From the NCBI RefSeq assembly GCF_009931435.1, contig NZ_CP043414.1: a stretch of 64,000 nt of DNA; one strand, given 5' to 3'. The number at the start of each line of letters is the position of its first letter. Within the stretch, counting starts at the first letter, position 1. Below the pieces are notes generated by a model. The model ran no database searches. It was given only the letters and a program-made list of their open reading frames with translations, and was not told the origin of the DNA. This document shows positions 1 to 46,890 of this stretch, piece by piece. The stretch comes from Escherichia coli. Its GTDB lineage: Bacteria; Pseudomonadota; Gammaproteobacteria; Enterobacterales; Enterobacteriaceae. The position numbers were made by a program, and so were the translations under genes.

Positions 1-53
1 CGGTGAGGCGCAATGTTGCGGGGGCTTAATCCCTGGTGGCATTGGTTGCTGGA

Positions 54-121
54 GAGAGAAAACCCCCGCACGTTGCAGATATTCACCTGACAACATCACG
101 GGGGCTAATCTTGAACCTAGA
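54..121 (-). ncRNA. rdl: Candidate Rdl antisense sRNA, unit 1 (position approximate)
   Basis: Nested hairpin (cccccg...caggt/acctg...cggggg) preceded on the + strand by gagagagaaaa, which reads as hairpin plus U-run on the - strand, about 50 nt upstream of the ldr ATG. Rdl is known to be encoded antisense to the ldr leader. Confidence 0.3.
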
Positions 122-170
122 CCACTCAAGAATAGCCGCGAAACGTTGTCATTACAACACAGGCGGCTAT

Positions 171-278
171 ATGACGCTCGCAGAACTGGGCATGGCCTTC
201 TGGCATGATTTAGCGGCTCCGGTCATTGCTGGCATTCTTGCCAGCATGATCGTGAACTGGCTGAATAAGCGGAAGTAA
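171..278 (+). CDS. ldr: Ldr type I toxin peptide, copy 1 (35 aa, MTLAELGMAFWHDLAAPVIAGILASMIVNWLNKRK)
   Basis: 35-codon ORF closely matching the K-12 LdrD peptide as recalled; followed by a stem-loop terminator. Confidence 0.85.
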   Translation: MTLAELGMAFWHDLAAPVIAGILASMIVNWLNKRK

Positions 279-328
279 CGTGTCAGACGGGCGTCAGGCT
301 GCCGTAATGGCAATTTGCGCCCGGACCA

Positions 329-362
329 GGCCGCAGAGATAAAACTCTGCGGCCTTTTTCGT
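329..362 (+). terminator. Intrinsic terminator after ldr copy 1
   Basis: GGCCGCAG...CTGCGGCC stem-loop followed by TTTTT. Confidence 0.6.
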
Positions 363-536
363 AAGAAAAATGCAACGGTTGCAAGCGGATAATATTCTGC
401 GGAATGCGCAGCACAGAGTGAAGAAGTGATGGATTCTGGAACAGAAAAACAGTCGTAGAATCAGCAGCAAGCCGGAAGGGTTCCGGTGAGGCGCAATGTT
501 GCGGGGGCTTTATCCCTGGTGGCATTGGTTGCTGGA

Positions 537-604
537 GAGAGAAAACCCCCGCACGTTGCAGGTATGCACCTGACAACATCACGGGGGCCATTCTTGCATC
601 CAAA
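537..604 (-). ncRNA. rdl: Candidate Rdl antisense sRNA, unit 2 (approximate)
   Basis: Same hairpin plus U-run structure at the equivalent position in unit 2. Confidence 0.3.
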
Positions 605-653
605 CAATACAAGAATAGCCGCGAAACGTTGTCATTACAACAGAGGCGGCTAT

Positions 654-761
654 ATGACGCTCGCAGAACTGGGCATGGCCTTCTGGCATGATTTAGCGGC
701 TCCGGTCATTGCTGGCATTCTTGCCAGTCTGATCGTGAACTGGCTGAACAAGCGGAAGTAA
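654..761 (+). CDS. ldr: Ldr type I toxin peptide, copy 2 (35 aa, ...ASLIVNWLNKRK)
   Basis: Same 35-codon ORF in repeat unit 2; M26L relative to copy 1. Confidence 0.85.
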   Translation: MTLAELGMAFWHDLAAPVIAGILASLIVNWLNKRK

Positions 762-811
762 CGTGTCAGACGGGCGTCAGGCTGCCGTAATGGCAATTTG
801 CGCCCGGACCA

Positions 812-845
812 GGCCGCAGGGATAAAACTCTGCGGCCTTTTTCGT
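812..845 (+). terminator. Intrinsic terminator after ldr copy 2
   Basis: Same GC stem-loop plus T-run. Confidence 0.6.
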
Positions 846-1020
846 AAGAAAAATGCAACGGTTGCAAGCGGATAATATTCTGCGGAATGCGCAGCACAGA
901 GTGAAGAAGTGATGGATTTCGACGAACAAAAATGGCCGTAGAATCAGCGGCAAGCCGGAAGGGTTCCGGTGAGGCGCAATGTTGCGGGGGGCTTTATCCC
1001 TGGTGGCATTGGTTGCTGGA

Positions 1021-1088
1021 GAGAGAAAACCCCCGCACGTTGCAGGTATGCACCTGACAACACCACGGGGGCCATTCTTGCATCTAGA
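1021..1088 (-). ncRNA. rdl: Candidate Rdl antisense sRNA, unit 3 (approximate)
   Basis: Same structure at the equivalent position in unit 3. Confidence 0.3.
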
Positions 1089-1137
1089 CCATTCAAGAAT
1101 AGCCGCGAAACGTTGTCATTACAACACTGGCGGCTAT

Positions 1138-1245
1138 ATGACGCTCGCAGAGCTGGGCATGGCCTTCTGGCACGATTTAGCGGCTCCGGTCATTGCTGGC
1201 ATTCTTGCCAGTCTGATCGTGAACTGGCTGAACAAGCGGAAGTAA
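1138..1245 (+). CDS. ldr: Ldr type I toxin peptide, copy 3
   Basis: Same ORF in repeat unit 3; peptide identical to copy 2. Confidence 0.85.
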   Translation: MTLAELGMAFWHDLAAPVIAGILASLIVNWLNKRK

Positions 1246-1295
1246 CGTGTCGGACGAGCGTCAGGCTGCCGTAATGGCAATTTGCGCCCGGACCA

Positions 1296-1328
1296 GGCCG
1301 CAGGGATAAAACTCTGCGGCCTTTTTCG
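1296..1328 (+). terminator. Intrinsic terminator after ldr copy 3
   Basis: Same GC stem-loop plus T-run. Confidence 0.6.
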
Positions 1329-1504
1329 TAAGAAAAATGCAACGGTTGCAAGCGGATAATATTCTGCGGAATGCGCAGCACAGAGTGAAGAAGTGATGGA
1401 TTTCGACGAACAAAAATGGCCGTAGAATCAGCGGCAAGCCGGAAGGGTTCCGGTGAGGCGCAATGTTGCGGGGGGCTTTATCCCTGGTGGCATTGGTTGC
1501 TGGA

Positions 1505-1572
1505 GAGAGAAAACCCCCGCACGTTGCAGGTATGCACCTGACAACACCACGGGGGCCATTCTTGCATCTAGA
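1505..1572 (-). ncRNA. rdl: Candidate Rdl antisense sRNA, unit 4 (approximate)
   Basis: Same structure at the equivalent position in unit 4. Confidence 0.3.
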
Positions 1573-1621
1573 CCATTCAAGAATAGCCGCGAAACGTTGT
1601 CATTACAACACTGGCGGCTAT

Positions 1622-1729
1622 ATGACGCTCGCAGAGCTGGGCATGGCCTTCTGGCACGATTTAGCGGCTCCGGTCATTGCTGGCATTCTTGCCAGTCTGA
1701 TCGTGAACTGGCTGAACAAGCGGAAGTAA
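1622..1729 (+). CDS. ldr: Ldr type I toxin peptide, copy 4
   Basis: Same ORF in repeat unit 4; unit appears identical to unit 3. Confidence 0.85.
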   Translation: MTLAELGMAFWHDLAAPVIAGILASLIVNWLNKRK

Positions 1730-1779
1730 CGTGTCGGACGAGCGTCAGGCTGCCGTAATGGCAATTTGCGCCCGGACCA

Positions 1780-1812
1780 GGCCGCAGGGATAAAACTCTG
1801 CGGCCTTTTTCG
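1780..1812 (+). terminator. Intrinsic terminator after ldr copy 4
   Basis: Same GC stem-loop plus T-run. Confidence 0.6.
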
Positions 1813-1987
1813 TAAGAAAAATGCAACGGTTGCAAGCGGATAATATTCTGCGGAATGTGCAGCACAGAGTGAAGAAGTGATGGATTCCGGAACAGAAAAA
1901 CAGTCGTAGAATCAGCGGCAAGCCGGAAGGGTTCCGGTGAGGCGCAATGTTGCGGGGGCTTAATCCCTGGTGGCATTGGTTGCTGGA

Positions 1988-2055
1988 GAGAGAAAACCCC
2001 CGCACGTTGCAGGTATGCACCTGACAACATCACGGGGGCTAATCTTGAACCCAAA
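1988..2055 (-). ncRNA. rdl: Candidate Rdl antisense sRNA, unit 5 (approximate)
   Basis: Same structure at the equivalent position in unit 5. Confidence 0.3.
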
Positions 2056-2104
2056 CAACTCAAGAATAGCCGCGAAACGTTGTCATTACAACAGAGGCGG
2101 CTAT

Positions 2105-2212
2105 ATGACGCTCGCAGAACTGGGCATGGCCTTCTGGCATGATTTAGCGGCTCCGGTCATTGCTGGCATTCTTGCCAGTCTGATCGTGAACTCGCTGAAT
2201 AAGCGGAAGTAA
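2105..2212 (+). CDS. ldr: Ldr type I toxin peptide, copy 5, variant (...ASLIVNSLNKRK, Trp30 to Ser)
   Basis: Same ORF frame in repeat unit 5; tgg to tcg change read directly in the sequence. Confidence 0.8.
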   Translation: MTLAELGMAFWHDLAAPVIAGILASLIVNSLNKRK

Positions 2213-2262
2213 CGTGTCATGCGGGCGTCAGGCTGCCGTAATGGCAATTTGCGCCCGGATCA

Positions 2263-2295
2263 GGCCGCAGGGGTGAAACTCTGCGGCCTTTTTCG
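2263..2295 (+). terminator. Intrinsic terminator after ldr copy 5, convergent with the bcsG 3' end
   Basis: Same GC stem-loop plus T-run, ending 4 nt before the bcsG stop. Confidence 0.6.
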
Positions 2296-2298
2296 TTC

Positions 2299-3978
2299 TT
2301 ATTGCGGGTAAGGCACCCAGTCGCCGCCGTTCAGGCGAACGTACGGTTTATCCTGGTATTGAATAACCACTGCATTTGAGTTCTCGGAGACCGGTGCTGT
2401 TTGTGGCAACCCACTGGTGAGTTTTTTCCAGTCAACATTGTCTTCGGTGAAAATCTTACCATCAAGAACGCGAACCACCAGATCGGAGATAGCCAGGAAG
2501 CTGCTCGGTTGGTCGATGACAATCGGTGCCCCCTGATGTGGTGCCTTCATGCCGAAGAATTTCACCCCAACGGGGACGTCTGTGATAGACGGGCTAGGGA
2601 TATCACGTAGGCCAGATACCTGCATTCTGTCGCCCTTCAGCGCGCCACCGTGTTCCGGCACCACTACCACCATCACTTTACGACCCGATTTCTCCAGTTC
2701 AGTAAAGAAGGCGTCCAGCTCATCAAAGAATTTCTGCGCTCGCGCTTTGTAATCCGCTGTTTTGCTGACGCCCGGATAATGGTTGCCGTCATGCAGTGGA
2801 AGCGTGTTGTAGAACGTGGCACTACGGCTGTTTTTATCTTTTTCGGTAACGTCCAGCCAGCGGTTAAGCACGGCGGTATCGTCATAAACCGGCGAACCAT
2901 CAAAGCCCAGCAAAATAACCGGCAGATTTGTTTGATCCATCAATTCGGTCTGCATGCCGCCATTTTCGCGAACTTCTTTCAAAAAACCGCCGAACTGGCC
3001 GTTATGTCCCATCATCAGGTGCTGGGTAAAGCCCAGTTTCGACAGGTTATCAAACAGATAGCAGTCGTTATTTGCCGGTTGATACAGATTAGTGTGCGAA
3101 GTCTGCCCGCAGCTGGCGCGCAGTAAACGGATCGCCGCCGGGCCACTGTAGGAGGTGGCGGAGTTAAAGTTCTTGAACTCAATATCGAAATGCGACCACA
3201 GCGGATGCGACATCAACCCGGCGGCTTCAATATCCGACCAGGAAAGCGAACAGATATTAATCACCAGTAGTTCAAATGGCTGAGCATCAGCGGGCAGCGA
3301 AGACGGGAAGGTCGATTTACGTTTCGCCTCCGCGTTATAGAAATTATTCAACCAGGCGTTAAGGTTCGCCGTTGTTGGCGGTGCAGTTTGTGCGGGCATA
3401 TCACCCACTACCGGTGCGCCACCCGTCGCCGCAACGGTTGCCGCTGCGTTACCACCCGTCGTTGTTACAGTGGTCGTCGGTTGACCGGCAGGCCACAAGG
3501 AGAAACTTGGTCCCGCCAGGGTAAGTACGTTCAGCCATAGCAGAATGGCAACCACAAAAACGGTAATGCGAATCCATTGTGACAGGAATAACCAGGCCAC
3601 TAATAAAACAAAAATGGCCCCAATCATCTGCCAGTTAATAAAGCGTGTGACAAGGTCGATTAAATAATCGGTACTGAACCCCGCCACCTGCGAACCCTGG
3701 CTCATTATGCTTTCCGGGCCCGGCAACCAGGTGTCATGCCAGAACAAAGCAAAGCCGATCGGCAGGGCAATCCAGTGGCGTAAGCGATGCAGGCTGTAGC
3801 GCGGAATGGGCATCAGCAGAAACGCGGCAAACACCAGATTGAGGAGCGGATGGAAGTTAAGATATCCCGCCCACAACAGGCCGAACTTAACCAGAAAATA
3901 GAAGTTCCAGCCGGAAAGGCCGCGCCAGTATTGCCAGAGGGAAGAAGGCATGGCGGTATTTTGCGTAAATTGAGTCAT
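2299..3978 (-). CDS. bcsG: Cellulose biosynthesis protein BcsG (phosphoethanolamine transferase)
   Basis: 559-aa ORF with N-terminal membrane segments and alkaline-phosphatase-like C-terminal domain; matches E. coli BcsG in sequence and position. Confidence 0.95.
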
Positions 3979-4166
3979 TTTTTGGTTGCCCTGGCTTTTT
4001 CCGTGCGGCGTAACGTCCCGGCCGGTTTAACATAACGAGGTTTAGCAAAGAACAAACGTAAGGTGTCGCGAATGCGTCGCAAAGAGTGCCGCGCCAGATA
4101 GCCCAGCGGGAAAAATATCAGTGCGCAAACGACAATAATTTCAATGATATCGCTGATGGTCATCAT
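3975..4166 (-). CDS. bcsF: Cellulose biosynthesis small membrane protein BcsF
   Basis: 63-aa ORF, 4-nt overlap with bcsG; matches BcsF. Confidence 0.9.
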
Positions 4167-5734
4167 GATGAGCGCTCCACAGTATCATCTAACAGTCGCA
4201 TTGGTTCTGGTATTCTTCGCCAGTGGCGACCATCGTGCTCGGCATTGATGACCGGTTTAGAACTTTGCGTTAAAGGCAGCGGCATGCCCCATTGTTCTGG
4301 AGCAAGCAGGCGCATCTGCACCAGCTCGGCACTGATTTGATCATCTTCAAACCAGACCATACGGTTTGAGAAAATGTCGCCAGTCGGCAATGGGAAAATA
4401 TGATTCAACGCGGTATCCAGATCGTTAATCCGACAGAATGAGAGAAACAGCACCAGCCGATTACCGCCAATGGTCATGATATCGCCGGTACGGTTAGGGC
4501 GACACAGCGTCAGGGCTTGCTCAACGCGGATACCCGGTACCGGACGTAGGGCAACCAGAACGCCTTTACCATGTGCAGGCAAGAGAGGGTTATTCATCAT
4601 GTTGTTAACGGCATTACAGAACACATCCCACTTCTGGAAACCACGTAGTTTGAGCGGCTGGGTCATTGACAGCAAGGTAGTGATATCTTCCGGCACATAG
4701 CGACTAAACTTCTGCCCTTGCACGCTTTCGATCATCGTCAGACAGCGGGAGAGTGGCGCATTCCACGGGATAACCATATTTGCACCGCAGGCCAATAACA
4801 AACGTTCATCGGTGGCGCGCAGGCTTGCGGTATTTTCCCGTACGAGGATTTTCATCGCACTACCGCGCTGGCGACGCAGAGTATGAATGCTGCGGGCCAG
4901 TGGCTCGATTTGCGCATTTTGCTGTAAAGAAAAGACCACCGTCGCCGCCTGAGCGGTACGGGCTTCATTGAACAGAACTTCGTTATTGTTGAACAGTTGC
5001 CAGTGTTCCGATAGCGGCGGCGCACCTTCCAGTACAGCAACATTACTCAGAATGCGTTTTTCGTCGCTGCGTGGTTGGATCTCTGCCTCTTCGCTTTGAA
5101 CTAATGTCCAGATACCTTTTTGTTGCTGAACGCTAAGCTGCTGACGGGCGCTGACCCCTTTTTCGTTGCACCAGAAGGCAATATCCAGCAAATGTTGGTC
5201 GCCCTGAAAACGCAAACTGGCAAGACCAAAAAGTGAACGGTATTCCTCAAGCAACAATGAAAATTGTTTATCGTTATTATTTCCGGGATTAATTACCAAA
5301 AGCGAACAATGGTTTAACCTGCTCCATTTATTCATTTTATCCAACCATGAGCGAAGCCGTTCGGCAGGAATGTTTTGCCATGCGTTATTTGCGCAAACAA
5401 GAATAAAAAGGTAATTATTGGGATCAATAGAACACTGCAAATCACGGGCCAAATAGTATAGACCTTTTTCATGATTTAGCATTGAAAATAATTTTATTTT
5501 TTCCGGCCCTTGAGAATCATCTAATTGAAAGATTTTCGCCGGATCGCTGTCCATGCTAATGACCGCGACGTGTGCGGTTTCAGCCTGGGATGCAATTGTT
5601 TGATTCGCCAGACTGATAGCATCTTCATGGCGATCGACGTTAAACCACCAGACGCCGCCTGCTGGCATATGTCGCAGCTCATCCCATAATGATGAGATAC
5701 CGATAGAGAATACAGGGTCCACAATGTCCCTCAT
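4163..5734 (-). CDS. bcsE: Cellulose biosynthesis c-di-GMP-binding protein BcsE
   Basis: 523-aa ORF, 4-nt overlap with bcsF; matches BcsE. Confidence 0.95.
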
Positions 5735-6005
5735 GTCATCATTTTGTCTGATTATCAGTTTACTAGCGAAAGCTAAGAAATAAACCTACCATTGAAATTA
5801 AAACTTATCAGATTTAGCATGTGAATCAATTTAGCAGGTCACAAGACGTGTGATTTTAGTCTTTTCGTTTTTAACTTTTTTTGTTGCGTAACGGAAAGTC
5901 AAAAAGTGAGCAAATTCCCGTCTCGCCGTAAACAATAAACCGGCGAAATGCTCACGGTTAGAATTGTCTCATGAACGGTACGGTTATTTCATAGGGATCA
6001 AGCAA

Positions 6006-6194
6006 ATGAATAACAATGAACCAGATACTCTGCCTGATCCCGCGATAGGCTATATCTTCCAGAATGATATTTTGGCGTTAAAGCAGGCGTTTTCACTGCC
6101 TGATATTGATTATGCCGATATTTCCCAACGCGAACAGTTGGCCGCGGCATTAAAACGCTGGCCGTTGCTGGCAGAGTTTGCGCAACAAAAGTAG
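6006..6194 (+). CDS. bcsR: Cellulose biosynthesis protein BcsR (62 aa)
   Basis: Starts MNNNEPDTLPDPAIGYIF...; matches BcsR (YhjR). The track ORF begins 14 codons upstream at 5964. Confidence 0.85.
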   Translation: MNNNEPDTLPDPAIGYIFQNDILALKQAFSLPDIDYADISQREQLAAALKRWPLLAEFAQQK

Positions 6195-6205
6195 GGGATT
6201 GGTGA

Positions 6206-6958
6206 ATGGCCGTACTGGGATTGCAGGGGGTGCGGGGAGGCGTGGGAACAACAACCATCACTGCCGCATTAGCCTGGTCATTACAAATGTTGGGAGAAGA
6301 TGTCCTGGTGGTCGATGCCTGCCCGGACAACTTGTTGCGCCTGTCATTTAACGTCGATTTTACCCACCGTCAGGGCTGGGCCAGAGCCATGCTGGACGGT
6401 CAGGACTGGCGTGACGCCGGGTTGCGCTATACCTCGCAACTCGATTTGCTGCCTTTTGGTCAGTTATCCATTGAAGAACAAGAAAATCCACAGCACTGGC
6501 AAACCCGGCTGAGCGATATTTGCTCCGGCTTACAGCAACTAAAAGCCAGCGGGCGTTACCAGTGGATTTTAATCGACTTACCGCGTGATGCCTCGCAGAT
6601 AACCCACCAGCTGCTGAGTTTGTGCGATCACTCGCTGGCAATCGTCAATGTGGATGCCAACTGCCATATCCGGCTGCATCAGCAGGCGCTGCCGGATGGC
6701 GCGCATATTTTGATTAATGACTTCCGTATCGGCAGTCAGGTTCAGGACGATATTTACCAGCTTTGGTTGCAAAGCCAGCGCCGATTACTGCCAATGCTCA
6801 TTCATCGTGATGAAGCGATGGCTCAATGCCTGGCGGCTAAGCAACCAGTCGGTGAATACCGCAGTGATGCGCTGGCGGCTGAAGAGATACTGACGCTGGC
6901 TAACTGGTGCCTGTTGAACTATTCCGGGCTGAAAACACCAGTCGGGAGTGCATCATGA
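6206..6958 (+). CDS. bcsQ: Cellulose biosynthesis protein BcsQ (ParA/MinD-like ATPase), intact
   Basis: 250-aa uninterrupted ORF; codon 6 is TTG (Leu), where K-12 is recalled to have a TAG stop. Confidence 0.95.
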   Translation: MAVLGLQGVRGGVGTTTITAALAWSLQMLGEDVLVVDACPDNLLRLSFNVDFTHRQGWARAMLDGQDWRDAGLRYTSQLDLLPFGQLSIEEQENPQHWQTRLSDICSGLQQLKASGRYQWILIDLPRDASQITHQLLSLCDHSLAIVNVDANCHIRLHQQALPDGAHILINDFRIGSQVQDDIYQLWLQSQRRLLPMLIHRDEAMAQCLAAKQPVGEYRSDALAAEEILTLANWCLLNYSGLKTPVGSAS

Positions 6959-9573
6959 GTATCCTGACCCGGTGGTTGCTTCTCCCGCCGGTCAACGCGC
7001 GGCTTATCGGGCGTTATCGCGATTATCGTCGTCACGGCGCGTCGGCTTTCAGCGCGACGCTCGGTTGTTTTTGGTTGATCCTTGCCTGGATTTTTATCCC
7101 GCTGGAGCACCCGCGCTGGCAGCGTATTCGCGCAGAACATAAAAACCTGTATCCGCATATCAACGCCTCGCGTCCGCGTCCGCTGGACCCGGTCCGTTAT
7201 CTCATTCAAACATGCTGGTTACTGATCGGTACATCGCGCAAAGAAACGCCGAAACCGCGCAGGCGGACATTTTCAGGTCTGCAGAATATTCGTGGACGTT
7301 ACCATCAATGGATGAACGAGCTGCCTGAGCGCGTTAGCCATAAAACACAGCATCTCGATGAGAAAAAAGAACTCGGCCATTTGAGCGCCGGGGCGCGGCG
7401 GTTGATCCTCGGTATCATCGTCACCTTCTCGCTGATTCTGGCGTTAATCTGCGTTACCCAGCCGTTTAACCCGCTGGCGCAGTTTATCTTCCTGATGCTG
7501 CTGTGGGGTGTAGCGCTGATCGTACGGCGGATGCCGGGGCGCTTCTCGGCGCTAATGTTGATTGTGCTGTCGCTGACCGTTTCTTGCCGTTATATCTGGT
7601 GGCGCTACACCTCTACGCTGAACTGGGACGATCCGGTCAGTCTGGTGTGCGGGCTTATTCTGCTGTTCGCTGAAACGTACGCGTGGATTGTGCTGGTGCT
7701 CGGCTACTTCCAGGTGGTATGGCCGCTGAATCGTCAGCCGGTGCCATTGCCGAAAGATATGTCGCTGTGGCCGTCGGTGGATATCTTTGTCCCGACTTAC
7801 AACGAAGATCTCAACGTGGTGAAAAATACGATTTACGCCTCGCTGGGTATCGACTGGCCGAAAGACAAGCTGAACATCTGGATCCTCGATGACGGCGGCA
7901 GGGAAGAGTTTCGCCAGTTTGCACAAAACGTGGGGGTGAAATATATCGCCCGTACCACTCATGAACATGCGAAAGCAGGCAACATCAACAATGCGCTGAA
8001 ATATGCCAAAGGCGAGTTCGTGTCGATTTTCGACTGCGACCACGTGCCGACGCGCTCATTCCTGCAAATGACCATGGGCTGGTTCCTGAAAGAAAAACAG
8101 TTGGCGATGATGCAGACGCCGCACCACTTCTTCTCACCGGACCCGTTTGAACGCAACCTCGGGCGTTTTCGTAAAACGCCAAACGAAGGCACGCTGTTTT
8201 ATGGTCTGGTGCAGGACGGCAATGATATGTGGGATGCCACTTTCTTCTGCGGTTCCTGTGCGGTGATTCGTCGTAAGCCGCTGGATGAGATTGGCGGCAT
8301 TGCTGTCGAAACGGTAACCGAAGATGCGCATACTTCTCTGCGTTTGCACCGTCGTGGCTACACCTCTGCATATATGCGTATTCCACAGGCGGCGGGGCTG
8401 GCGACCGAAAGTCTGTCGGCGCATATCGGTCAGCGTATTCGCTGGGCGCGCGGGATGGTGCAAATCTTCCGTCTCGATAACCCGCTCACCGGTAAAGGGC
8501 TGAAGTTTGCTCAGCGGCTGTGCTACGTCAACGCCATGTTCCATTTCTTGTCGGGCATTCCACGACTGATCTTCCTGACTGCGCCGCTGGCGTTCCTGCT
8601 GCTGCATGCCTACATCATCTACGCGCCAGCGTTAATGATCGCTCTGTTTGTGCTGCCGCATATGATTCACGCCAGCCTGACCAACTCGAAGATTCAGGGT
8701 AAATATCGCCACTCTTTCTGGAGCGAAATCTACGAAACGGTACTGGCGTGGTATATCGCACCACCGACGCTGGTGGCGCTGATTAACCCGCACAAAGGCA
8801 AATTTAACGTCACCGCCAAAGGTGGACTGGTGGAAGAAGAGTACGTCGACTGGGTGATCTCACGGCCCTACATTTTCCTGGTATTGCTCAACCTGGTCGG
8901 TATTGCGGTCGGTATCTGGCGTTACTTCTACGGCCCGCCAACCGAGATGCTCACTGTCATCGTCAGTATGGTGTGGGTGTTCTACAACCTGATTATTCTC
9001 GGTGGTGCGGTAGCGGTATCGGTAGAAAGCAAACAGGTTCGCCGATCGCACCGCGTGGAGATGACGATGCCCGCGGCAATTGCCCGCGAAGATGGTCACC
9101 TCTTCTCGTGTACCGTTCAGGATTTCTCCGACGGTGGTTTGGGGATCAAGATCAACGGTCAGGCACAGATTCTGGAAGGGCAGAAAGTGAATCTGTTGCT
9201 TAAACGCGGTCAGCAAGAATACGTCTTCCCGGCCCAGGTGGCGCGCGTGATGGGTAATGAAGTTGGGCTGAAATTAATGCCGCTCACCACCCAGCAACAT
9301 ATCGATTTTGTGCAGTGTACGTTTGCCCGTGCGGATACATGGGCGCTCTGGCAGGACAGCTATCCGGAAGATAAGCCGCTGGAAAGTCTGCTGGATATTC
9401 TGAAGCTCGGCTTCCGTGGCTACCGCCATCTGGCGGAGTTTGCGCCTTCTTCGGTGAAGGGCATATTCCGTGTGCTGACTTCTCTGGTTTCCTGGGTTGT
9501 ATCGTTTATTCCGCGCCGCACGGAGCGGAGCGAAACGGCACAACCATCGGATCAGGCTTTGGCTCAACAATGA
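6955..9573 (+). CDS. bcsA: Cellulose synthase catalytic subunit BcsA (872 aa)
   Basis: Start MSILTRWLL... overlaps the bcsQ stop (ATGA); glycosyltransferase motifs (DCDH, QRIRWA) and a C-terminal PilZ region are present. Confidence 0.95.
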   Translation: MSILTRWLLLPPVNARLIGRYRDYRRHGASAFSATLGCFWLILAWIFIPLEHPRWQRIRAEHKNLYPHINASRPRPLDPVRYLIQTCWLLIGTSRKETPKPRRRTFSGLQNIRGRYHQWMNELPERVSHKTQHLDEKKELGHLSAGARRLILGIIVTFSLILALICVTQPFNPLAQFIFLMLLWGVALIVRRMPGRFSALMLIVLSLTVSCRYIWWRYTSTLNWDDPVSLVCGLILLFAETYAWIVLVLGYFQVVWPLNRQPVPLPKDMSLWPSVDIFVPTYNEDLNVVKNTIYASLGIDWPKDKLNIWILDDGGREEFRQFAQNVGVKYIARTTHEHAKAGNINNALKYAKGEFVSIFDCDHVPTRSFLQMTMGWFLKEKQLAMMQTPHHFFSPDPFERNLGRFRKTPNEGTLFYGLVQDGNDMWDATFFCGSCAVIRRKPLDEIGGIAVETVTEDAHTSLRLHRRGYTSAYMRIPQAAGLATESLSAHIGQRIRWARGMVQIFRLDNPLTGKGLKFAQRLCYVNAMFHFLSGIPRLIFLTAPLAFLLLHAYIIYAPALMIALFVLPHMIHASLTNSKIQGKYRHSFWSEIYETVLAWYIAPPTLVALINPHKGKFNVTAKGGLVEEEYVDWVISRPYIFLVLLNLVGIAVGIWRYFYGPPTEMLTVIVSMVWVFYNLIILGGAVAVSVESKQVRRSHRVEMTMPAAIAREDGHLFSCTVQDFSDGGLGIKINGQAQILEGQKVNLLLKRGQQEYVFPAQVARVMGNEVGLKLMPLTTQQHIDFVQCTFARADTWALWQDSYPEDKPLESLLDILKLGFRGYRHLAEFAPSSVKGIFRVLTSLVSWVVSFIPRRTERSETAQPSDQALAQQ

Positions 9574-9583: not shown

Positions 9584-11923
9584 ATGAAAAGAAAACTATT
9601 CTGGATTTGTGCAGTGGCTATGGGGATGAGTGCGTTCCCCTCTTTCATGACGCAGGCGACGCCAGCAACGCAACCACTGATCAATGCTGAGCCAGCTGTA
9701 GCCGCCCAGACGGAACAAAATCCGCAGGTGGGGCAAGTGATGCCGGGCGTGCAGGGCGCTGATGCCCCCATCGTGGCGCAGAACGGTCCTTCGCGTGATG
9801 TGAAGCTGACCTTTGCGCAAATTGCGCCACCGCCGGGCAGCATGGTGCTACGTGGCATTAACCCGAACGGCAGCATTGAGTTTGGTATGCGCAGCGATGA
9901 AGTGGTGACGAAGGCGATGCTCAACCTCGAATACACGCCATCGCCATCGTTACTGCCTGTCCAGTCGCAGTTAAAGGTTTATCTCAATGATGAACTGATG
10001 GGCGTGCTGCCAGTGACCAAAGAACAGTTGGGTAAAAAAACGCTGGCACAAATGCCAATTAACCCACTGTTTATTACCGACTTCAACCGTGTGCGGCTGG
10101 AGTTTGTCGGTCATTATCAGGACGTGTGCGAAAATCCGGCCAGCACCACGCTTTGGCTGGATGTTGGGCGGAGCAGTGGACTGGATCTGACCTATCAGAC
10201 CCTGAATGTGAAGAATGATCTGTCACACTTCCCGGTACCATTCTTTGACCCGCGTGATAACCGCACCAACACCTTGCCGATGGTCTTTGCGGGTGCGCCG
10301 GATGTTGGGCTGCAACAAGCATCTGCCATTGTCGCCTCGTGGTTTGGTTCGCGTTCTGGCTGGCGTGGGCAGAACTTCCCGGTGCTCTATAACCAACTGC
10401 CGGATCGCAATGCCATCGTTTTTGCCACTAATGACAAACGCCCGGACTTCCTGCGCGATCATCCGGCGGTAAAAGCCCCGGTGATTGAGATGATCAACCA
10501 TCCACAGAATCCTTACGTCAAACTGCTGGTGGTCTTTGGTCGTGACGACAAAGACCTGTTGCAGGCAGCGAAAGGTATCGCTCAGGGTAACATTCTGTTC
10601 CGTGGTGAAAGCGTGGTAGTGAATGAAGTGAAACCGCTGCTACCGCGTAAGCCGTACGATGCGCCGAACTGGGTGCGTACCGATCGCCCGGTCACCTTTG
10701 GTGAACTAAAAACCTATGAAGAACAGTTACAATCCAGCGGTCTTGAGCCAGCAGCGATTAACGTTTCGCTAAACCTGCCGCCGGATCTCTACCTGATGCG
10801 CAGTACCGGCATTGATATGGATATCAACTATCGCTACACCATGCCGCCGGTGAAAGACAGTTCGCGGATGGATATCAGCCTGAATAACCAGTTCCTGCAA
10901 TCCTTCAACCTGAGCAGTAAACAGGAGGCGAACCGCCTGCTGCTGCGTATTCCGGTATTACAAGGTTTGCTGGATGGCAAAACGGATGTCTCTATTCCGG
11001 CGCTGAAACTGGGCGCGACCAACCAGTTGCGGTTCGACTTTGAGTATATGAACCCGATGCCGGGCGGTTCGGTGGATAACTGTATTACCTTCCAGCCGGT
11101 GCAGAATCATGTGGTGATTGGTGACGACTCCACCATCGACTTCTCGAAGTATTACCACTTCATCCCGATGCCGGATCTACGCGCCTTTGCTAACGCGGGC
11201 TTCCCGTTCAGCCGGATGGCGGATCTGTCACAAACCATCACCGTGATGCCGAAAGCGCCTAACGAAGCACAGATGGAAACCTTGCTGAATACCGTTGGCT
11301 TTATCGGTGCGCAGACGGGCTTCCCGGCGATTAACCTGACGGTGACCGATGATGGCAGCACCATTCAGGGCAAAGATGCCGACATCATGATCATCGGTGG
11401 TATCCCGGACAAACTGAAAGACGACAAGCAGATCGACCTGTTGGTGCAGGCGACCGAAAGCTGGGTGAAAACGCCGATGCGCCAGACCCCGTTCCCCGGC
11501 ATTGTGCCGGACGAGAGCGATCGCGCGGCAGAAACTCAATCAACGCTGACCTCTTCCGGTGCGATGGCAGCGGTGATTGGCTTCCAGTCGCCGTATAACG
11601 ACCAGCGTAGCGTGATTGCGCTGCTGGCAGATAGCCCACGCGGTTATGAAATGCTTAACGATGCGGTGAACGATAGCGGCAAACGCGCCACCATGTTCGG
11701 CTCGGTCGCGGTGATCCGCGAGTCCGGTATCAATAGCCTGCGTGTTGGCGACGTCTATTACGTTGGCCATCTGCCGTGGTTCGAACGCTTATGGTATGCG
11801 CTGGCAAACCATCCGATTCTGCTGGCGGTGCTGGCGGCAATCAGCGTCGTGCTGCTGGCCTGGGTACTGTGGCGTTTGCTGCGTATTATCAGCCGTCGTC
11901 GTCTTAACCCGGATAACGAGTAA
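9584..11923 (+). CDS. bcsB: Cellulose synthase periplasmic subunit BcsB (779 aa)
   Basis: Starts MKRKLFWICAVAMG... with signal peptide and C-terminal membrane anchor; matches BcsB. Confidence 0.95.
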   Translation: MKRKLFWICAVAMGMSAFPSFMTQATPATQPLINAEPAVAAQTEQNPQVGQVMPGVQGADAPIVAQNGPSRDVKLTFAQIAPPPGSMVLRGINPNGSIEFGMRSDEVVTKAMLNLEYTPSPSLLPVQSQLKVYLNDELMGVLPVTKEQLGKKTLAQMPINPLFITDFNRVRLEFVGHYQDVCENPASTTLWLDVGRSSGLDLTYQTLNVKNDLSHFPVPFFDPRDNRTNTLPMVFAGAPDVGLQQASAIVASWFGSRSGWRGQNFPVLYNQLPDRNAIVFATNDKRPDFLRDHPAVKAPVIEMINHPQNPYVKLLVVFGRDDKDLLQAAKGIAQGNILFRGESVVVNEVKPLLPRKPYDAPNWVRTDRPVTFGELKTYEEQLQSSGLEPAAINVSLNLPPDLYLMRSTGIDMDINYRYTMPPVKDSSRMDISLNNQFLQSFNLSSKQEANRLLLRIPVLQGLLDGKTDVSIPALKLGATNQLRFDFEYMNPMPGGSVDNCITFQPVQNHVVIGDDSTIDFSKYYHFIPMPDLRAFANAGFPFSRMADLSQTITVMPKAPNEAQMETLLNTVGFIGAQTGFPAINLTVTDDGSTIQGKDADIMIIGGIPDKLKDDKQIDLLVQATESWVKTPMRQTPFPGIVPDESDRAAETQSTLTSSGAMAAVIGFQSPYNDQRSVIALLADSPRGYEMLNDAVNDSGKRATMFGSVAVIRESGINSLRVGDVYYVGHLPWFERLWYALANHPILLAVLAAISVVLLAWVLWRLLRIISRRRLNPDNE

Positions 11924-11929: not shown

Positions 11930-13036
11930 ATGAATGTGTTGCGTAGTGGACTCGTGACGATGCTGCTGCTGGCTGCCTTTAGTGTTCAGGCAGCCTGCAA
12001 CTGGCCTGCCTGGGAGCAGTTCAAAAAGGATTACATCAGTCAGGAAGGGCGCGTCATCGACCCCAGCGACGCGCGCAAAATCACCACCTCCGAAGGGCAA
12101 AGTTACGGCATGTTCTTTGCCCTGGCGGCTAACGACCGTGCAGCTTTCGATAATATTCTCGACTGGACGCAGAACAATCTCGCTCAGGGTTCTTTAAAAG
12201 AACATTTGCCCGCCTGGCTGTGGGGCAAGAAAGAGAACAGTAAGTGGGAAGTGCTGGACAGCAATTCGGCCTCTGATGGTGATGTCTGGATGGCCTGGTC
12301 GTTGCTGGAGGCGGGGCGTTTGTGGAAAGAGCAGCGTTATACCGACATCGGCAGCGCGTTGTTAAAACGTATTGCGCGGGAGGAAGTGGTGACGGTGCCT
12401 GGGCTGGGTTCCATGTTGTTACCGGGCAAAGTGGGATTTGCTGAGGATAACAGCTGGCGTTTTAACCCCAGCTACCTGCCGCCGACGCTGGCGCAGTATT
12501 TCACCCGCTTTGGCGCGCCGTGGACTACGCTGCGCGAAACCAATCAACGTTTATTGCTGGAAACCGCCCCGAAAGGCTTTTCACCAGACTGGGTGCGCTA
12601 TGAGAAAGACAAAGGCTGGCAGCTAAAAGCCGAAAAAACATTGATCAGCAGCTACGACGCTATCCGTGTTTACATGTGGGTAGGCATGATGCCTGACAGC
12701 GATCCGCAAAAAGCGCGGATGCTCAACCGGTTTAAACCGATGGCGACATTCACCGAGAAAAACGGCTATCCGCCGGAAAAAGTCGATGTGGCTACGGGGA
12801 AAGCGCAGGGTAAAGGACCGGTCGGTTTTTCTGCCGCCATGCTGCCCTTTTTACAAAACCGCGATGCACAGGCCGTTCAGCGCCAGCGCGTGGCCGATAA
12901 CTTTCCCGGCAGCGATGCCTATTACAACTATGTGCTGACCCTGTTTGGACAAGGCTGGGATCAACACCGTTTCCGCTTCTCGACAAAAGGTGAGTTATTA
13001 CCTGACTGGGGCCAGGAATGCGCAAATTCACACTAA
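11930..13036 (+). CDS. bcsZ: Endo-1,4-beta-glucanase BcsZ (GH8 family)
   Basis: 368-aa ORF with signal peptide, starting MNVLRSG...; matches BcsZ. Confidence 0.95.
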
Positions 13037-16000
13037 ACATATTCACGCTTTCCCTCGGTCTGGCCGTCATGCCGATGGTCGAGGCAGCACCAACCGCTCA
13101 GCAACAGTTGCTGGAGCAAGTTCGGTTAGGCGAAGCGACCCATCGTGAAGACCTGGTGCAACAGTCGTTGTATCGGCTGGAACTTATTGATCCAAATAAC
13201 CCGGACGTCGTTGCCGCCCGTTTCCGTTCTCTGTTACGTCAGGGCGATATTGATGGCGCGCAAAAACAGCTCGATCGGCTGTCGCAGTTAGCGCCGAGTT
13301 CAAATGCGTATAAATCGTCGCGGACCACAATGTTACTTTCTACGCCGGATGGTCGTCAGGCACTGCAACAGGCAAGATTGCAGGCGACTACCGGTCATGC
13401 AGAAGAAGCTGTGGCGAGTTACAACAAGCTGTTCAACGGTGCGCCGCCGGAAGGTGACATTGCCGTCGAGTACTGGAGTACGGTGGCGAAAATTCCGGCT
13501 CGCCGTGGCGAAGCGATTAATCAGCTAAAACGCATTAATGCGGATACGCCAGGCAATACGGGCCTGCAAAACAATCTGGCGCTATTGCTGTTTAGTAGCG
13601 ATCGCCGTGATGAAGGTTTTGCTGTACTGGAGCAGATGGCGAAATCGAACGCCGGGCGCGAGGGAGCCTCTAAAATCTGGTACGGGCAGATTAAAGACAT
13701 GCCTGTCAGCGATGCCAGCGTGCAGGCGCTGAAAAAATATCTCTCTATCTTTAGCGATGGCGACAGCGTAGCTGCTGCGCAATCGCAACTGGCAGAACAG
13801 CAAAAACAACTGGCCGATCCTGCTTTCCGCGCACGTGTGCAAGGTTTAGCGGCGGTGGACTCTGGCATGGCGGGTAAAGCCATTCCCGAACTACAACAGG
13901 CAGTGCGGGCGAACCCGAAAGACAGTGAGGCACTGGGGGCGCTGGGCCAGGCGTATTCTCAGAAAGGCGATCGCGTCAATGCGGTGGCGAATCTGGAAAA
14001 AGCCCTCGCACTGGACCCGCACAGCAGCAACAACGACAAATGGAACAGTCTGCTGAAAGTAAACCGCTACTGGCTGGCGATCCAGCAGGGTGATGCCGCG
14101 CTGAAAGCCAATAATCCTGACCGGGCAGAACGCCTGTTCCAGCAGGCGCGCAGTGTCGATAACACCGACAGCTATGCGGTGTTGGGGCTGGGCGATGTGG
14201 CGATGGCGCGAAAAGATTATTCCGCCGCCGAACGCTATTACCAGCAGACGCTGCGCATGGACAGCGGCAATACCAACGCCGTGCGCGGGCTGGCGAATAT
14301 TTACCGCCAGCAATCGCCAGAAAAAGCAGAAGCGTTTATCGCCTCGCTCTCTGCCAGCCAGCGGCGCAGCATTGATGATATCGAACGTAGCCTGCAAAAC
14401 GATCATCTGGCACAGCAGGCAGAGGCACTGGAAAACCAGGGCAAATGGGCGCAGGCAGCAGCACTTCAGCGGCAACGACTGGCACTGGACCCCGGCAGTG
14501 TATGGATTACTTACCGACTTTCGCAGGATCTCTGGCAGGCCGGACAACGCAGCCAGGCCGATACGTTAATGCGCAATCTCGCGCAGCAGAAGCCGAACGA
14601 CCCGGAGCAGGTTTACGCTTACGGGCTGTACCTCTCAGGTCACGACCAGGACAGAGCGGCACTGGCGCATATCAACAGCCTGCCGCGCGCGCAGTGGAAC
14701 AGCAATATTCAGGAGCTGGTTAATCGGCTGCAAAGCGACCAGGTGCTGGAAACCGCTAATCGCCTGCGAGAAAACGGTAAAGAGGCAGAAGCAGAAGCGA
14801 TGCTGCGCCAGCAACCGCCTTCCTCGCGTATTGATCTGACGCTGGCTGACTGGGCGCAACAACGACGTGATTACGCTGCTGCCCGTGCTGCATATCAGAA
14901 TGTCCTGACGCGGGAGCCAACTAACGCTGATGCCATTCTTGGCCTGACGGAAGTGGATATCGCTGCCGGTGACAAAGCGGCGGCACGTAGCCAACTGGCG
15001 AAACTGCCTGCCACCGATAACGCCTCCCTGAACACACAGCGGCGCGTGGCGCTGGCGCAGGCGCAGCTTGGCGATACCGCAGCGGCGCAGCAGACATTTA
15101 ACAAGCTGATCCCGCAGGCAAAATCTCAGCCACCGTCGATGGAAAGCGCGATGGTACTGCGCGACGGTGCGAAGTTTGAAGCGCAGGCGGGCGATCCAAC
15201 GCAGGCGCTGGAAACCTACAAAGACGCGATGGTCGCATCCGGTGTGACCACGACGCGTCCGCAGGATAACGACACCTTTACCCGGCTGACTCGTAACGAC
15301 GAGAAAGATGACTGGCTGAAACGCGGCGTGCGCAGCGATGCGGCAGATCTCTACCGCCAGCAGGATCTTAACGTCACCCTTGAGCATGATTATTGGGGAT
15401 CGAGCGGCACCGGTGGTTATTCCGATCTGAAAGCGCACACCACTATGTTGCAGGTGGACGCACCGTATTCTGACGGGCGGATGTTCTTTCGCAGTGATTT
15501 CGTCAATATGAACGTCGGCAGTTTCTCCACGAATGCCGATGGCAAATGGGATGACAACTGGGGCACCTGTACATTACAGGACTGTAGCGGCAACCGCAGC
15601 CAGTCGGATTCCGGTGCCAGCGTGGCGGTCGGCTGGCGAAATGACGTCTGGAGCTGGGATATCGGCACCACGCCGATGGGCTTCAACGTGGTGGATGTGG
15701 TCGGCGGCATCAGTTACAGCGATGATATCGGGCCGCTGGGTTACACAGTTAACGCCCATCGTCGGCCCATCTCCAGTTCTTTGCTGGCCTTTGGCGGGCA
15801 AAAAGACTCCCCGAGCAATACCGGGAAAAAATGGGGCGGCGTGCGTGCCGACGGCGTGGGGCTAAGCCTGAGCTACGATAAAGGTGAAGCAAACGGCGTC
15901 TGGGCATCGCTTAGCGGTGACCAGTTAACCGGTAAAAATGTCGAAGATAACTGGCGCGTGCGCTGGATGACGGGCTATTACTATAAGGTCATCAACCAGA

Positions 16001-16491
16001 ATAATCGCCGTGTGACCATTGGCCTGAACAATATGATCTGGCATTACGACAAAGACCTGAGTGGGTACTCACTCGGTCAGGGCGGTTACTACAGCCCGCA
16101 GGAATACCTGTCGTTTGCCATTCCGGTGATGTGGCGTGAACGGACAGAAAACTGGTCGTGGGAGCTGGGGGCGTCTGGTTCGTGGTCGCATTCGCGCACC
16201 AAAACCATGCCGCGGTATCCGCTGATGAATCTGATCCCGACTGACTGGCAGGAAGAAGCTGCGCGGCAATCCAACGATGGCGGCAGCAGTCAGGGCTTTG
16301 GCTATACGGCGCGGGCATTACTTGAGCGTCGCGTCACATCCAACTGGTTTGTCGGTACGGCAATTGATATCCAGCAAGCGAAGGATTACGCGCCCAGCCA
16401 TTTCCTGCTCTACGTACGTTATTCCGCCGCCGGATGGCAGGGTGACATGGATTTACCGCCGCAGCCGCTGATACCTTACGCCGACTGGTAA
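13018..16491 (+). CDS. bcsC: Cellulose synthase outer-membrane subunit BcsC (TPR repeats plus C-terminal beta-barrel)
   Basis: 1157-aa ORF overlapping the bcsZ 3' end by 19 nt; matches BcsC. Confidence 0.95.
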
Positions 16492-16572: not shown

Positions 16573-18561
16573 TTGCGCGTAAGTCGCTCGTTAACAATCA
16601 AGCAGATGGCAATGGTGGCAGCCGTTGTCCTGGTGTTCGTTTTTATTTTTTGCACCGTTTTGCTGTTCCATCTGGTCCAGCAGAATCGCTATAACACGGC
16701 TACGCAACTGGAAAGCATTGCTCGCTCTGTCCGCGAACCCTTATCTTCTGCCATTTTGAAAGGCGATATTCCCGAAGCGGAAGCTATTCTTGCCAGCATT
16801 AAACCGGCAGGCGTGGTCAGCCGTGCCGATGTGGTGCTGCCTAACCAGTTCCAGGCGCTGCGTAAAAGTTTTATTCCAGAGCGTCCGGTGCCGGTAATGG
16901 TTACTCGCATGTTTGAGCTACCGGTGCAAATCTCGCTGGGCGTTTACTCGCTGGAACGTCCGGCAAACCCGCAGCCAATTGCCTATCTGGTGCTACAGGC
17001 GGATTCCTTCCGCATGTATAAGTTCGTGATGAGCACCCTCTCGACGTTAGTGACCATTTACTTACTTTTGTCGTTAATATTGACGGTGGCGATTAGCTGG
17101 TGCATTAACCGCCTGATTTTGCATCCGTTACGCAATATTGCTCGTGAACTTAACGCCATCCCAGCCCAGGAGCTTGTTGGTCACCAACTGGCATTACCAC
17201 GTCTGCATCAGGACGATGAAATCGGTATGCTGGTGCGCAGTTACAACCTCAACCAGCAATTGCTGCAGCGCCATTATGAAGAACAGAACGAAAATGCGAT
17301 GCGCTTCCCGGTGTCGGATTTGCCGAACAAAGCCTTGCTGATGGAGATGCTGGAGCAGGTTGTCGCGCGTAAACAAACCACCGCGCTGATGATTATCACC
17401 TGTGAAACCCTGCGTGATACTGCGGGCGTGCTGAAAGAGGCGCAACGAGAAATTCTGCTGCTGACGCTGGTGGAAAAACTCAAATCGGTACTGTCGCCAC
17501 GTATGATCCTCGCGCAGATTAGTGGTTATGACTTTGCTGTCATTGCCAACGGTGTACAGGAGCCGTGGCATGCTATTACTTTAGGTCAGCAAGTGCTCAC
17601 TATCATGAGCGAGCGCCTGCCGATTGAACGTATTCAACTCCGTCCGCACTGTAGCATTGGCGTGGCGATGTTCTACGGCGATCTCACCGCCGAACAGCTT
17701 TACAGTCGCGCTATTTCTGCGGCATTTACCGCTCGCCATAAAGGTAAGAATCAGATTCAGTTCTTTGATCCGCAGCAGATGGAAGCCGCCCAACAGCGGT
17801 TGACGGAAGAGAGCGATATCCTTAATGCACTGGAAAATCATCAGTTTGCGATTTGGTTACAGCCACAGGTCGAGATGACCAGCGGTAAACTGGTCAGTGC
17901 GGAAGTGTTACTGCGTATCCAGCAACCGGATGGCAGTTGGGATCTGCCGGATGGCTTAATCGATCGCATTGAGTGCTGTGGGCTGATGGTTACCGTCGGT
18001 CACTGGGTGCTGGAAGAGTCCTGTCGACTGCTGGCTGCCTGGCAAGAGCGCGGCATTATGTTGCCCTTGTCGGTAAACCTCTCAGCGCTGCAACTGATGC
18101 ACCCGAATATGGTAGCGGATATGCTGGAACTGTTAACCCGCTATCGCATTCAGCCGGGAACACTGATTCTGGAAGTGACAGAAAGCCGACGTATTGACGA
18201 CCCTCATGCAGCGGTGGCAATCCTCCGCCCGTTGCGTAATGCCGGCGTTCGGGTGGCGCTGGATGATTTCGGCATGGGCTACGCAGGGCTGCGTCAGCTG
18301 CAGCATATGAAATCGTTGCCAATCGACGTGTTAAAAATCGACAAAATGTTTGTTGAAGGCTTGCCGGAAGATAGCAGCATGATTGCTGCAATTATCATGT
18401 TGGCGCAAAGCCTGAACTTACAAATGATTGCCGAAGGCGTGGAGACTGAAGCACAACGCGACTGGCTGGCAAAAGCGGGCGTTGGTATTGCCCAGGGCTT
18501 CCTTTTTGCTCGCCCACTCCCTATTGAAATCTTCGAAGAGAGTTACCTGGAAGAAAAGTAG
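16573..18561 (+). CDS. pdeK: c-di-GMP phosphodiesterase PdeK (YhjK), membrane GGDEF-EAL protein
   Basis: 662-aa ORF with N-terminal TM segment and EAL region. The track start at 16573 is TTG; the nearest in-frame ATG is at about 16606. Confidence 0.9.
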
Positions 18562-25900: not shown

Positions 25901-25907
25901 TGGAAAC

Positions 25908-26005
25908 TGCCGGATGCGGCGTGAACGCCTTATCCGGCCTACAAATCCTTGCGAATTCAATATATTTTATGGAAGTTCAGGCCTGATAAGCGTAGCGCAT
26001 CAGGC
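25908..26005. repeat. REP/BIME elements between convergent yhjG and yhjE
   Basis: gccggatgcggcgtgaacgccttatccggcctac and gcctgataagcgtagcgcatcaggc are classic REP palindromes. Confidence 0.75.
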
Positions 26006-26019
26006 AATTTTCAACCTTA

Positions 26020-27735: not shown

Positions 27736-27749
27736 GCATCCGGCATATT

Positions 27750-37138: not shown

Positions 37139-37154
37139 AGTTTTACTCAGACAT

Positions 37155-46870: not shown

Positions 46871-46890
46871 TCTATATAGTTATTTATTCG

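What the first reader, a model, noticed from the sequence alone, without database searches (positions are those of the whole stretch)
6206..6958. bcsQ is intact, so the cellulose machinery appears complete
K-12 is known to carry a premature stop in bcsQ that abolishes cellulose production. Here codon 6 is TTG and the 250-aa ORF is uninterrupted; all other bcs genes are full length with the usual translational coupling (bcsQ/bcsA ATGA overlap, bcsZ/bcsC 19-nt overlap, bcsE/F/G 4-nt overlaps). The c-di-GMP enzymes pdeK and pdeH sit just downstream.
Basis: partly seen in the sequence, partly recalled or inferred. Interest (0 to 1): 0.3.

Follow-up and report, generated by a model that had tools for sequence, protein, structure and literature searches.

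The report
Ordinary intact E. coli cellulose locus
This is the normal, undamaged cellulose-secretion gene cluster of a wild Escherichia coli; only the laboratory K-12 lineage carries the stop codon that this strain lacks, so the finding is correct but ordinary.

Summary
bcsQ (6206-6958, +) is an uninterrupted 250-codon ORF with TTG at codon 6, where K-12 MG1655 has TAG. All nine bcs genes (bcsRQABZC and the divergent bcsEFG) align to K-12 with no gaps and no internal stops. They show the stated overlaps, full-length family matches, intact catalytic and c-di-GMP-binding motifs, and dN/dS of about 0.03. pdeK lies 81 nt and pdeH 6.5 kb downstream of bcsC; both are intact.

This is the wild-type state, not a special feature. 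Among 5,426 complete E. coli genomes, at least 4,869 carry the TTG allele and 349 carry TAG. All 60 TAG genomes sampled look like K-12 laboratory derivatives by name or size. The exact BcsQ protein is on record on 584 contigs, and a public E. coli draft assembly is 99.98% identical across the locus.

The K-12 defect and its repair (strain AR3110) are published. An intact locus is necessary for phosphoethanolamine-cellulose production but not sufficient. The CsgD/DgcC inputs lie outside the window, and published strains with no nonsense mutation in bcs are calcofluor-negative.

Verdict: already known, low interest. Seen in passing: a five-copy ldr/rdl toxin-antitoxin array and a chu haem-uptake insertion.

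The parts
6206..6958 (+). bcsQ, intact 250-aa MinD/ParA-like (SIMIBI) ATPase of the cellulose secretion system; codon 6 = TTG
   Evidence: P-loop GVRGGVGTT at residues 8-16
6006..6194 (+). bcsR (yhjR), 62 aa, partner of BcsQ
   Evidence: PF10945 E=2.8e-17
6955..9573 (+). bcsA, 872-aa catalytic cellulose synthase with a C-terminal PilZ domain; ATGA overlap with bcsQ
   Evidence: motifs DCD360, TED455, QRIRW493, and RRSHR696...DFSDGG
9584..11923 (+). bcsB, 779-aa periplasmic co-catalytic subunit
   Evidence: PF03170 E=4e-224
11930..13036 (+). bcsZ, 368-aa GH8 endoglucanase; 19-nt overlap with bcsC
   Evidence: E55 and D243 present
13018..16491 (+). bcsC, 1157-aa TPR protein with outer-membrane barrel (export channel)
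   Evidence: PF05420 E=4e-120 plus TPR families
4163..5734 (-). bcsE, 523-aa c-di-GMP-binding regulator (GIL domain, RTGD at 415)
3975..4166 (-). bcsF, 63-aa membrane protein; DNA sequence identical to K-12
2299..3978 (-). bcsG, 559-aa phosphoethanolamine transferase (C243, S278, E442, H443 present)
5735..6005 (.). divergent bcsE / bcsR intergenic (promoter) region; 3 SNPs and a 1-nt shorter A-run compared with K-12
   Evidence: the promoter-consensus scan was not above chance
16573..18561 (+). pdeK (yhjK/hmsP), 662-aa GAPES3-HAMP-GGDEF(degenerate)-EAL phosphodiesterase, the local c-di-GMP sink at cellulose synthase
   Evidence: EVL444, DDFG564, EGVE621; role from PMC7397504
23003..23770 (+). 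pdeH (yhjH), 255-aa EAL phosphodiesterase
   Evidence: ELL48, DDFG158, EGVE215

Best explanation
The window carries the wild-type E. coli-type (type II) bacterial cellulose synthesis locus, with two divergent operons, bcsRQABZC and bcsEFG.

**How the system works (from published work on the E. coli system).**
- BcsA and BcsB polymerise UDP-glucose and move the glucan across the inner membrane once c-di-GMP binds the BcsA PilZ domain.
- BcsR and BcsQ are needed for assembly and stability of the synthase complex.
- BcsE and BcsF recruit and regulate BcsG, which adds phosphoethanolamine in the periplasm.
- BcsZ trims the glucan and BcsC exports it.
- PdeK acts as a local c-di-GMP sink.

**Shown here.** Every gene is intact, conserved and under purifying selection. 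The single K-12 lesion, TAG at bcsQ codon 6, is absent because that lesion is a private mutation of the K-12 lineage.

**Inferred, not shown.** That the strain actually makes phosphoethanolamine-cellulose when CsgD and DgcC are expressed.
For: - The window is gapless and collinear with K-12 from bcsG to rcdB, and only K-12 bcsQ has an internal stop.
- All nine Bcs proteins and PdeK give full-length Pfam matches. BcsQ matches the NCBIfam equivalog model at 539 bits against a cut-off of 399.
- BcsQ is 246/250 identical to the crystallised BcsQ, and BcsA aligns over 1-872 to the cryo-EM BcsA chains.
- Catalytic and ligand-binding motifs are present.
- dN/dS is 0.025-0.07 for bcsA, B, C, E, G, Q and Z.
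- Allele census: TTG in 4,869 and TAG in 349 of 5,426 complete genomes. The TAG carriers sampled are K-12 laboratory derivatives.
- The exact proteins are already in public databases: BcsQ on 584 contigs, BcsA on 16 and BcsC on 15. An independent assembly, GCA_030511265.1, is 99.98% identical over 17.8 kb.
- Published work reports the K-12 stop and its repair (PMC7397504, PMC5944007).
Against: - There is no phenotype, and no expression data.
- The activating inputs (dgcC, csgD, mlrA, rpoS) are not in the window.
- PMC5944007 found strains with no nonsense mutation in bcs that were calcofluor-negative on LB.
- BcsQ D32 and Q207 are absent from the ten other full-length cluster members sampled. 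Their effect is untested, although this exact allele is widespread.
Confidence: 0.9

Rival explanations
1. The locus is intact but the strain makes no cellulose under standard conditions, because the upstream regulation (RpoS/MlrA/CsgD/DgcC, or high PdeH/PdeK activity) is off or altered.
For: DgcC is specifically required and is under CsgD control (PMC7397504). BL21 and H10407 have no bcs nonsense mutation yet are calcofluor-negative (PMC5944007). None of the regulators lies in the window.
Against: Nothing in the window points to it. pdeK and pdeH differ from K-12 only by 4 and 5 residues outside the catalytic motifs. This rival concerns phenotype and does not contradict 'machinery complete'.
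Confidence: 0.25
2. A missense change silently inactivates one subunit, for example BcsQ N32D or E207Q, or one of the 13 BcsC, 9 BcsA or 7 BcsB substitutions relative to K-12.
For: PMC5944007 speculates that amino-acid changes in BcsB, BcsC and BcsQ explain cellulose-negative strains. D32 and Q207 were not seen in ten other full-length BcsQ cluster members.
Against: No substitution falls on a checked catalytic or binding motif. dN/dS is about 0.03. The exact BcsQ sequence occurs on 584 contigs and the BcsA and BcsC sequences on about 15 each, which is not the pattern of a decaying gene.
Confidence: 0.05
3. The intact reading frames are an assembly or sequencing artefact, with a real frameshift or stop masked.
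For: None.
Against: An independent public assembly is 99.98% identical with the same gene calls, and two metagenome contigs are 99.92-99.94% identical. There is not one indel against K-12 in 17 kb of coding sequence.
Confidence: 0.01

Closest known systems
E. coli 1094 / AR3110 bcsRQABZC-bcsEFG (type II, E. coli-like cellulose secretion system; structures 6YBU, 9FNN, 9FMV)
   Same: Same nine genes, order, overlaps and lengths. BcsQ is 246/250 identical to the crystallised protein, and BcsA aligns end to end. Codon 6 of bcsQ is TTG, as in the repaired AR3110.
   Different: Four BcsQ substitutions relative to strain 1094 (N32D, N172D, E207Q, K249A), and a handful of conservative changes in the other subunits.
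E. coli K-12 MG1655 bcs locus
   Same: Gapless collinearity over the whole locus, with 95.2-100% nucleotide identity per gene.
   Different: K-12 has TAG at bcsQ codon 6 and the gene is annotated as a pseudogene. K-12 has one ldrD/rdlD module next to bcsG where the window has five.
Cellulose-loss clones (ST95, ST1193, ST11, Shigella) described in PMC10881479
   Same: The same locus.
   Different: Those lineages carry nonsense or frameshift mutations in bcsA, bcsQ, bcsG and other bcs genes. None is present here.

Membership tests
BcsQ (PF06564 / NCBIfam NF007460, MinD/ParA-like SIMIBI ATPase) | Full-length match to the family model above the curated cut-off | tested here: met
   PF06564 378.6 bits against a cut-off of 21.3, residues 1-236. 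NF007460 539 bits against a cut-off of 399, 1-250/250.
BcsQ (PF06564 / NCBIfam NF007460, MinD/ParA-like SIMIBI ATPase) | N-terminal P-loop (GxxGGxGxT) intact and reading frame uninterrupted | tested here: met
   GVRGGVGTT at residues 8-16 and no internal stop.
BcsQ (PF06564 / NCBIfam NF007460, MinD/ParA-like SIMIBI ATPase) | ATP-dependent dimer in complex with BcsR, and a requirement for cellulose secretion | not testable with these tools
   Inferred only, from 98.4% identity to the crystallised BcsRQ component and an adjacent intact bcsR.
Type II (E. coli-like) bcs cluster | bcsR-Q-A-B-Z-C operon plus a divergent bcsE-F-G operon | tested here: met
   All nine genes are in K-12 order and orientation, each with its own Pfam family.
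BcsA, c-di-GMP-activated processive GT2 cellulose synthase | D, DxD, TED and QxxRW catalytic motifs, plus PilZ RxxxR and DxSxxG | tested here: met
   DCD360, TED455, QRIRW493, RRSHR696...DFSDGG. PilZ domain PF07238 at 694-790.
pEtN-modification module BcsEFG | BcsG catalytic Ser278 and metal ligands C243, E442 and H443; BcsE RxGD c-di-GMP site (residue numbers recalled from the literature, not re-derived here) | tested here: met
   All residues are present at those positions, and RTGD is at 415. The proteins differ from K-12 by 3, 0 and 4 residues.
Cellulose-producing (rdar / calcofluor-positive) E. coli | Production of pEtN-cellulose, which also needs CsgD-dependent DgcC | not testable with these tools
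   This is a phenotype. dgcC and csgD are not in the window.

The most novel reading that the evidence does not exclude
The only mildly novel readings left open are two. One is that the lineage-specific BcsQ allele (D32, Q207) changes BcsRQ ATPase or assembly behaviour. The other is that the five-fold ldr/rdl toxin-antitoxin array abutting the 3' end of bcsG affects bcsEFG transcript termination or stability. Nothing in the data supports either.
Probability: 0.03. Interest if true: 0.3.

Novelty: already known. Interest (0 to 1): 0.05.

Why it matters
It matters little. The result says the source strain is not K-12 and does not belong to one of the lineages that have lost cellulose genes by nonsense or frameshift mutation. 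It is therefore genetically able to make phosphoethanolamine-cellulose. That is the ancestral condition of E. coli, and the K-12 exception was published and repaired years ago. The practical use is as an annotation sanity check.

Tried and rejected
- **Hidden frameshifts or stops.** I looked in every bcs gene and in pdeK and pdeH by gapless alignment to K-12 and by translation. None was found.
- **Substitutions on catalytic or ligand-binding motifs.** None was found.
- **Promoter changes.** The bcsE/bcsR intergenic region has only 3 SNPs and a 1-nt A-run difference. The sigma-70 and terminator consensus scan was at chance level, so I drew nothing from it.
- **Is the TAG allele widespread in nature?** The 40-nt allele-specific searches say it is not.
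- **Identifying the source strain in complete RefSeq genomes.** The best hit is only 98.9% identical over 24 kb. An exact-protein look-up then found a draft assembly at 99.98%.
- **Minus-strand ORFs overlapping bcsQ** (5998-6330, 6360-6641, 6578-6772). These are mechanical ORFs inside a strongly constrained gene, and I did not pursue them.
- **Shigella origin.** PMC10881479 reports that all Shigella sequence types examined carry bcs loss-of-function mutations. That argues against a Shigella origin here.

Full report
**Observation.** The ORF at 6206-6958 (+) starts with ATG, runs 250 codons and ends in TGA. Its first six codons are ATG GCC GTA CTG GGA TTG. I fetched the annotated K-12 MG1655 region, where bcsQ (b3534) is flagged as a pseudogene. 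Aligning every K-12 gene from dppF to rcdB against the window gave these results:
- All nine bcs genes, pdeK, dctA, yhjJ, kdgK, pdeH, yhjG, yhjE, yhjD and rcdB align end to end without a single gap.
- Nucleotide identity for those genes ranges from 93.6% to 100%.
- The only internal stop anywhere is in K-12 bcsQ, at codon 6 (*6L in the window).

**Gene overlaps.**
- bcsQ and bcsA share ATGA at 6955-6958.
- bcsZ (11930-13036) and bcsC (13018-16491) overlap by 19 nt.
- bcsE/bcsF and bcsF/bcsG each overlap by 4 nt.

pdeK begins 81 nt after bcsC. pdeH lies 6.5 kb further on, beyond dctA, yhjJ and kdgK.

**Are the genes functional-looking?**
- Each Bcs protein gives a full-length match to its own Pfam family: BcsR, BcsQ, BcsB, GH8, BCSC_C with TPRs, BcsE, BcsF and BcsG, and GT2 plus PilZ for BcsA. 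PdeK shows GAPES3-HAMP-GGDEF-EAL.
- BcsQ passes the NCBIfam equivalog model, at 539 bits against a cut-off of 399.
- BcsQ is 246/250 identical to the crystallised E. coli BcsQ (6YBU and related entries).
- BcsA aligns over 1-872 with the cryo-EM chains 9FMV, 9FNN and 7LBY.

Motifs I checked directly are all present:

| Protein | Motifs found |
|---|---|
| BcsQ | P-loop GVRGGVGTT |
| BcsA | DCD360, TED455, QRIRW493, PilZ RRSHR696...DFSDGG |
| BcsE | RTGD415 |
| BcsG | C243, S278, E442, H443 |
| BcsZ | E55, D243 |
| PdeK | EVL444, EGVE621-624 |
| PdeH | ELL48, DDFG, EGVE |

The PdeK positions correspond to E431/V432 and E611 in the 649-aa numbering of PMC7397504. The BcsG, BcsZ and BcsE residue numbers come from my recollection of the literature; their presence at those positions is what the sequence shows.

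None of the amino-acid differences from K-12 falls on these positions. Those differences number 3 in BcsQ, 9 in BcsA, 7 in BcsB, 4 in BcsZ, 13 in BcsC, 4 in BcsE, 0 in BcsF, 3 in BcsG and 1 in BcsR.

Nei-Gojobori dN/dS against K-12 is 0.025-0.07 for the seven large bcs genes, with dS of 0.06-0.21. That indicates strong purifying selection. The short intergenic junctions are identical to K-12. The divergent bcsE/bcsR promoter region differs by three SNPs and one base in an A-run.

**How unusual is it?** It is not unusual.
- The 1.2-kb bcsR-bcsQ region is present in 5,303 of 5,426 complete E. coli genomes.
- I designed two 40-nt queries, identical except for the codon-6 base. The base is placed so that every 28-nt megablast seed must cover it.
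- The TAG version hits 349 genomes. All 60 rows sampled evenly across that list are K-12-type laboratory strains by name or size: MG1655, W3110-like, DH5alpha, DH1, BW25113, J53, HB101, MC4100, TG1, XL1-Blue and others, at 4.52-4.70 Mb.
- The TTG version hits 4,869 genomes.
- The exact BcsQ protein of the window is on record on 584 contigs. The exact BcsA and BcsC are on 16 and 15 contigs, all named as E. coli/Escherichia Bcs proteins.
- A contig of the NCBI assembly GCA_030511265.1 is 99.98% identical to the window over 17.8 kb, with the same gene calls.
- The best complete RefSeq genome (strain E500002) is 98.9% identical over 24 kb and is annotated identically.

**What the literature says.**
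[quoted passage not shown] - PMC5944007 describes the same 17T>A SNP as arising in the K-12 common ancestor. It notes that the effect may be loss of BcsQ itself or polarity on downstream genes.
- That paper also found that BL21 and H10407, which have all bcs genes without nonsense mutations, gave no detectable calcofluor signal. An intact locus therefore does not guarantee the phenotype.
- PMC10881479 shows that bcs loss-of-function mutations are recurrent in particular clones. In 14 of 76 common STs, more than 80% of strains are disrupted, and every Shigella ST examined is disrupted.
- An entirely intact nine-gene locus is thus the ancestral state rather than a universal one. It also argues against a Shigella origin.

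**Mechanism.** Shown here: gene content, integrity, motifs and constraint. Taken from the published E. coli system:
- c-di-GMP from DgcC binds the PilZ domain of BcsA.
- BcsA and BcsB polymerise and translocate beta-1,4-glucan.
- BcsR and BcsQ are needed for assembly and stability of the synthase macrocomplex.
- BcsE and BcsF link cytosolic c-di-GMP sensing to BcsG, which adds phosphoethanolamine.
- BcsZ and BcsC handle periplasmic trimming and outer-membrane export.
- PdeK is the local sink, and PdeH helps to degrade c-di-GMP.

Inferred: that this strain makes the polymer. dgcC, csgD, mlrA and rpoS are not in the window.

**Rivals.**
1. The locus is intact but regulation keeps it silent. This is plausible for any natural isolate and cannot be tested here.
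2. A cryptic inactivating missense change. BcsQ D32 and Q207 are absent from ten other full-length cluster members. The allele is widespread, however, and constraint is strong.
3. An assembly artefact. This is excluded in practice by the independent, near-identical assemblies.

**Verdict.** The feature is already known and is the species norm, so interest is very low.

**Seen in passing.**
- The window opens with a 484-bp tandem array. It holds five ldr toxin genes and five rdlD antitoxin RNAs, against one pair in K-12.
- The acid fitness island carries a 9-kb chu haem-uptake insertion between yhiD and dctR, with the chuA RNA thermometer.
- The yhiS position holds an uninterrupted, divergent 410-aa ORF with no family match.

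Noticed in passing
window 1-2296: A tandem array with a 484-bp period holds five type I toxin-antitoxin modules. The ldr toxin ORFs are at 171-278, 654-761, 1138-1245, 1622-1729 and 2105-2212 (+). The rdlD antitoxin RNAs are at 57-122, 540-605, 1024-1089, 1508-1573 and 1991-2056 (-). K-12 has a single ldrD/rdlD here, and the nearest complete genome also has five. Short-read and metagenome assemblies of the same lineage collapse the array to 1-2 copies. The fifth toxin copy carries W30S.
   Followed up: partly
window 46871-55934: A roughly 9-kb chu haem-uptake and utilisation cluster (chuA receptor, chuS, chuT, chuW, chuX, chuY, chuU, and a haem ABC ATPase) sits between yhiD and dctR in the acid fitness island. 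It is absent from K-12. An Rfam shuA/chuA 5'-UTR thermoregulator lies at 52786-52817. The presence of chuA implies a non-A, non-B1 lineage.
   Followed up: partly
window 57432-58664 (-): An uninterrupted 410-aa ORF lies at the yhiS position, where K-12 yhiS is split by IS5. It is only 80% identical at the nucleotide level to K-12 fragment 2, has no blastn match to fragment 1, and has no Pfam or NCBIfam hit.
   Followed up: partly
window 5999-6008: The A-run just upstream of the bcsR start codon is one base shorter than in K-12 (AAGCAA-ATG against AAGCAAA-ATG). This changes the spacing between the Shine-Dalgarno sequence and the start by 1 nt. I did not check how it is distributed among strains.
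   Followed up: no
window 6299-6301 and 6824-6826 (BcsQ residues 32 and 207): BcsQ D32 and Q207 were not seen in ten other full-length members of the 90% cluster, which have N32 and E207. The exact protein is nevertheless on 584 contigs. Functional significance is unknown and probably nil.
   Followed up: partly
window 61495-61812 (-) and 62087-62170 (+): Two AgrB-family antisense RNAs lie next to the dinQ toxin gene, corresponding to the K-12 agrA/agrB-dinQ type I toxin-antitoxin locus. GadY (37150-37263) and ES205 (43043-43114) sRNAs are also detected.
   Followed up: no
window 23840-28763: yhjG (94.1%) and yhjD (93.6%) are markedly more diverged from K-12 than neighbouring genes such as dctA (98.8%) and rcdB (98.8%), with dS near 0.28-0.29. 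This suggests mosaic recombination along the region.
   Followed up: no
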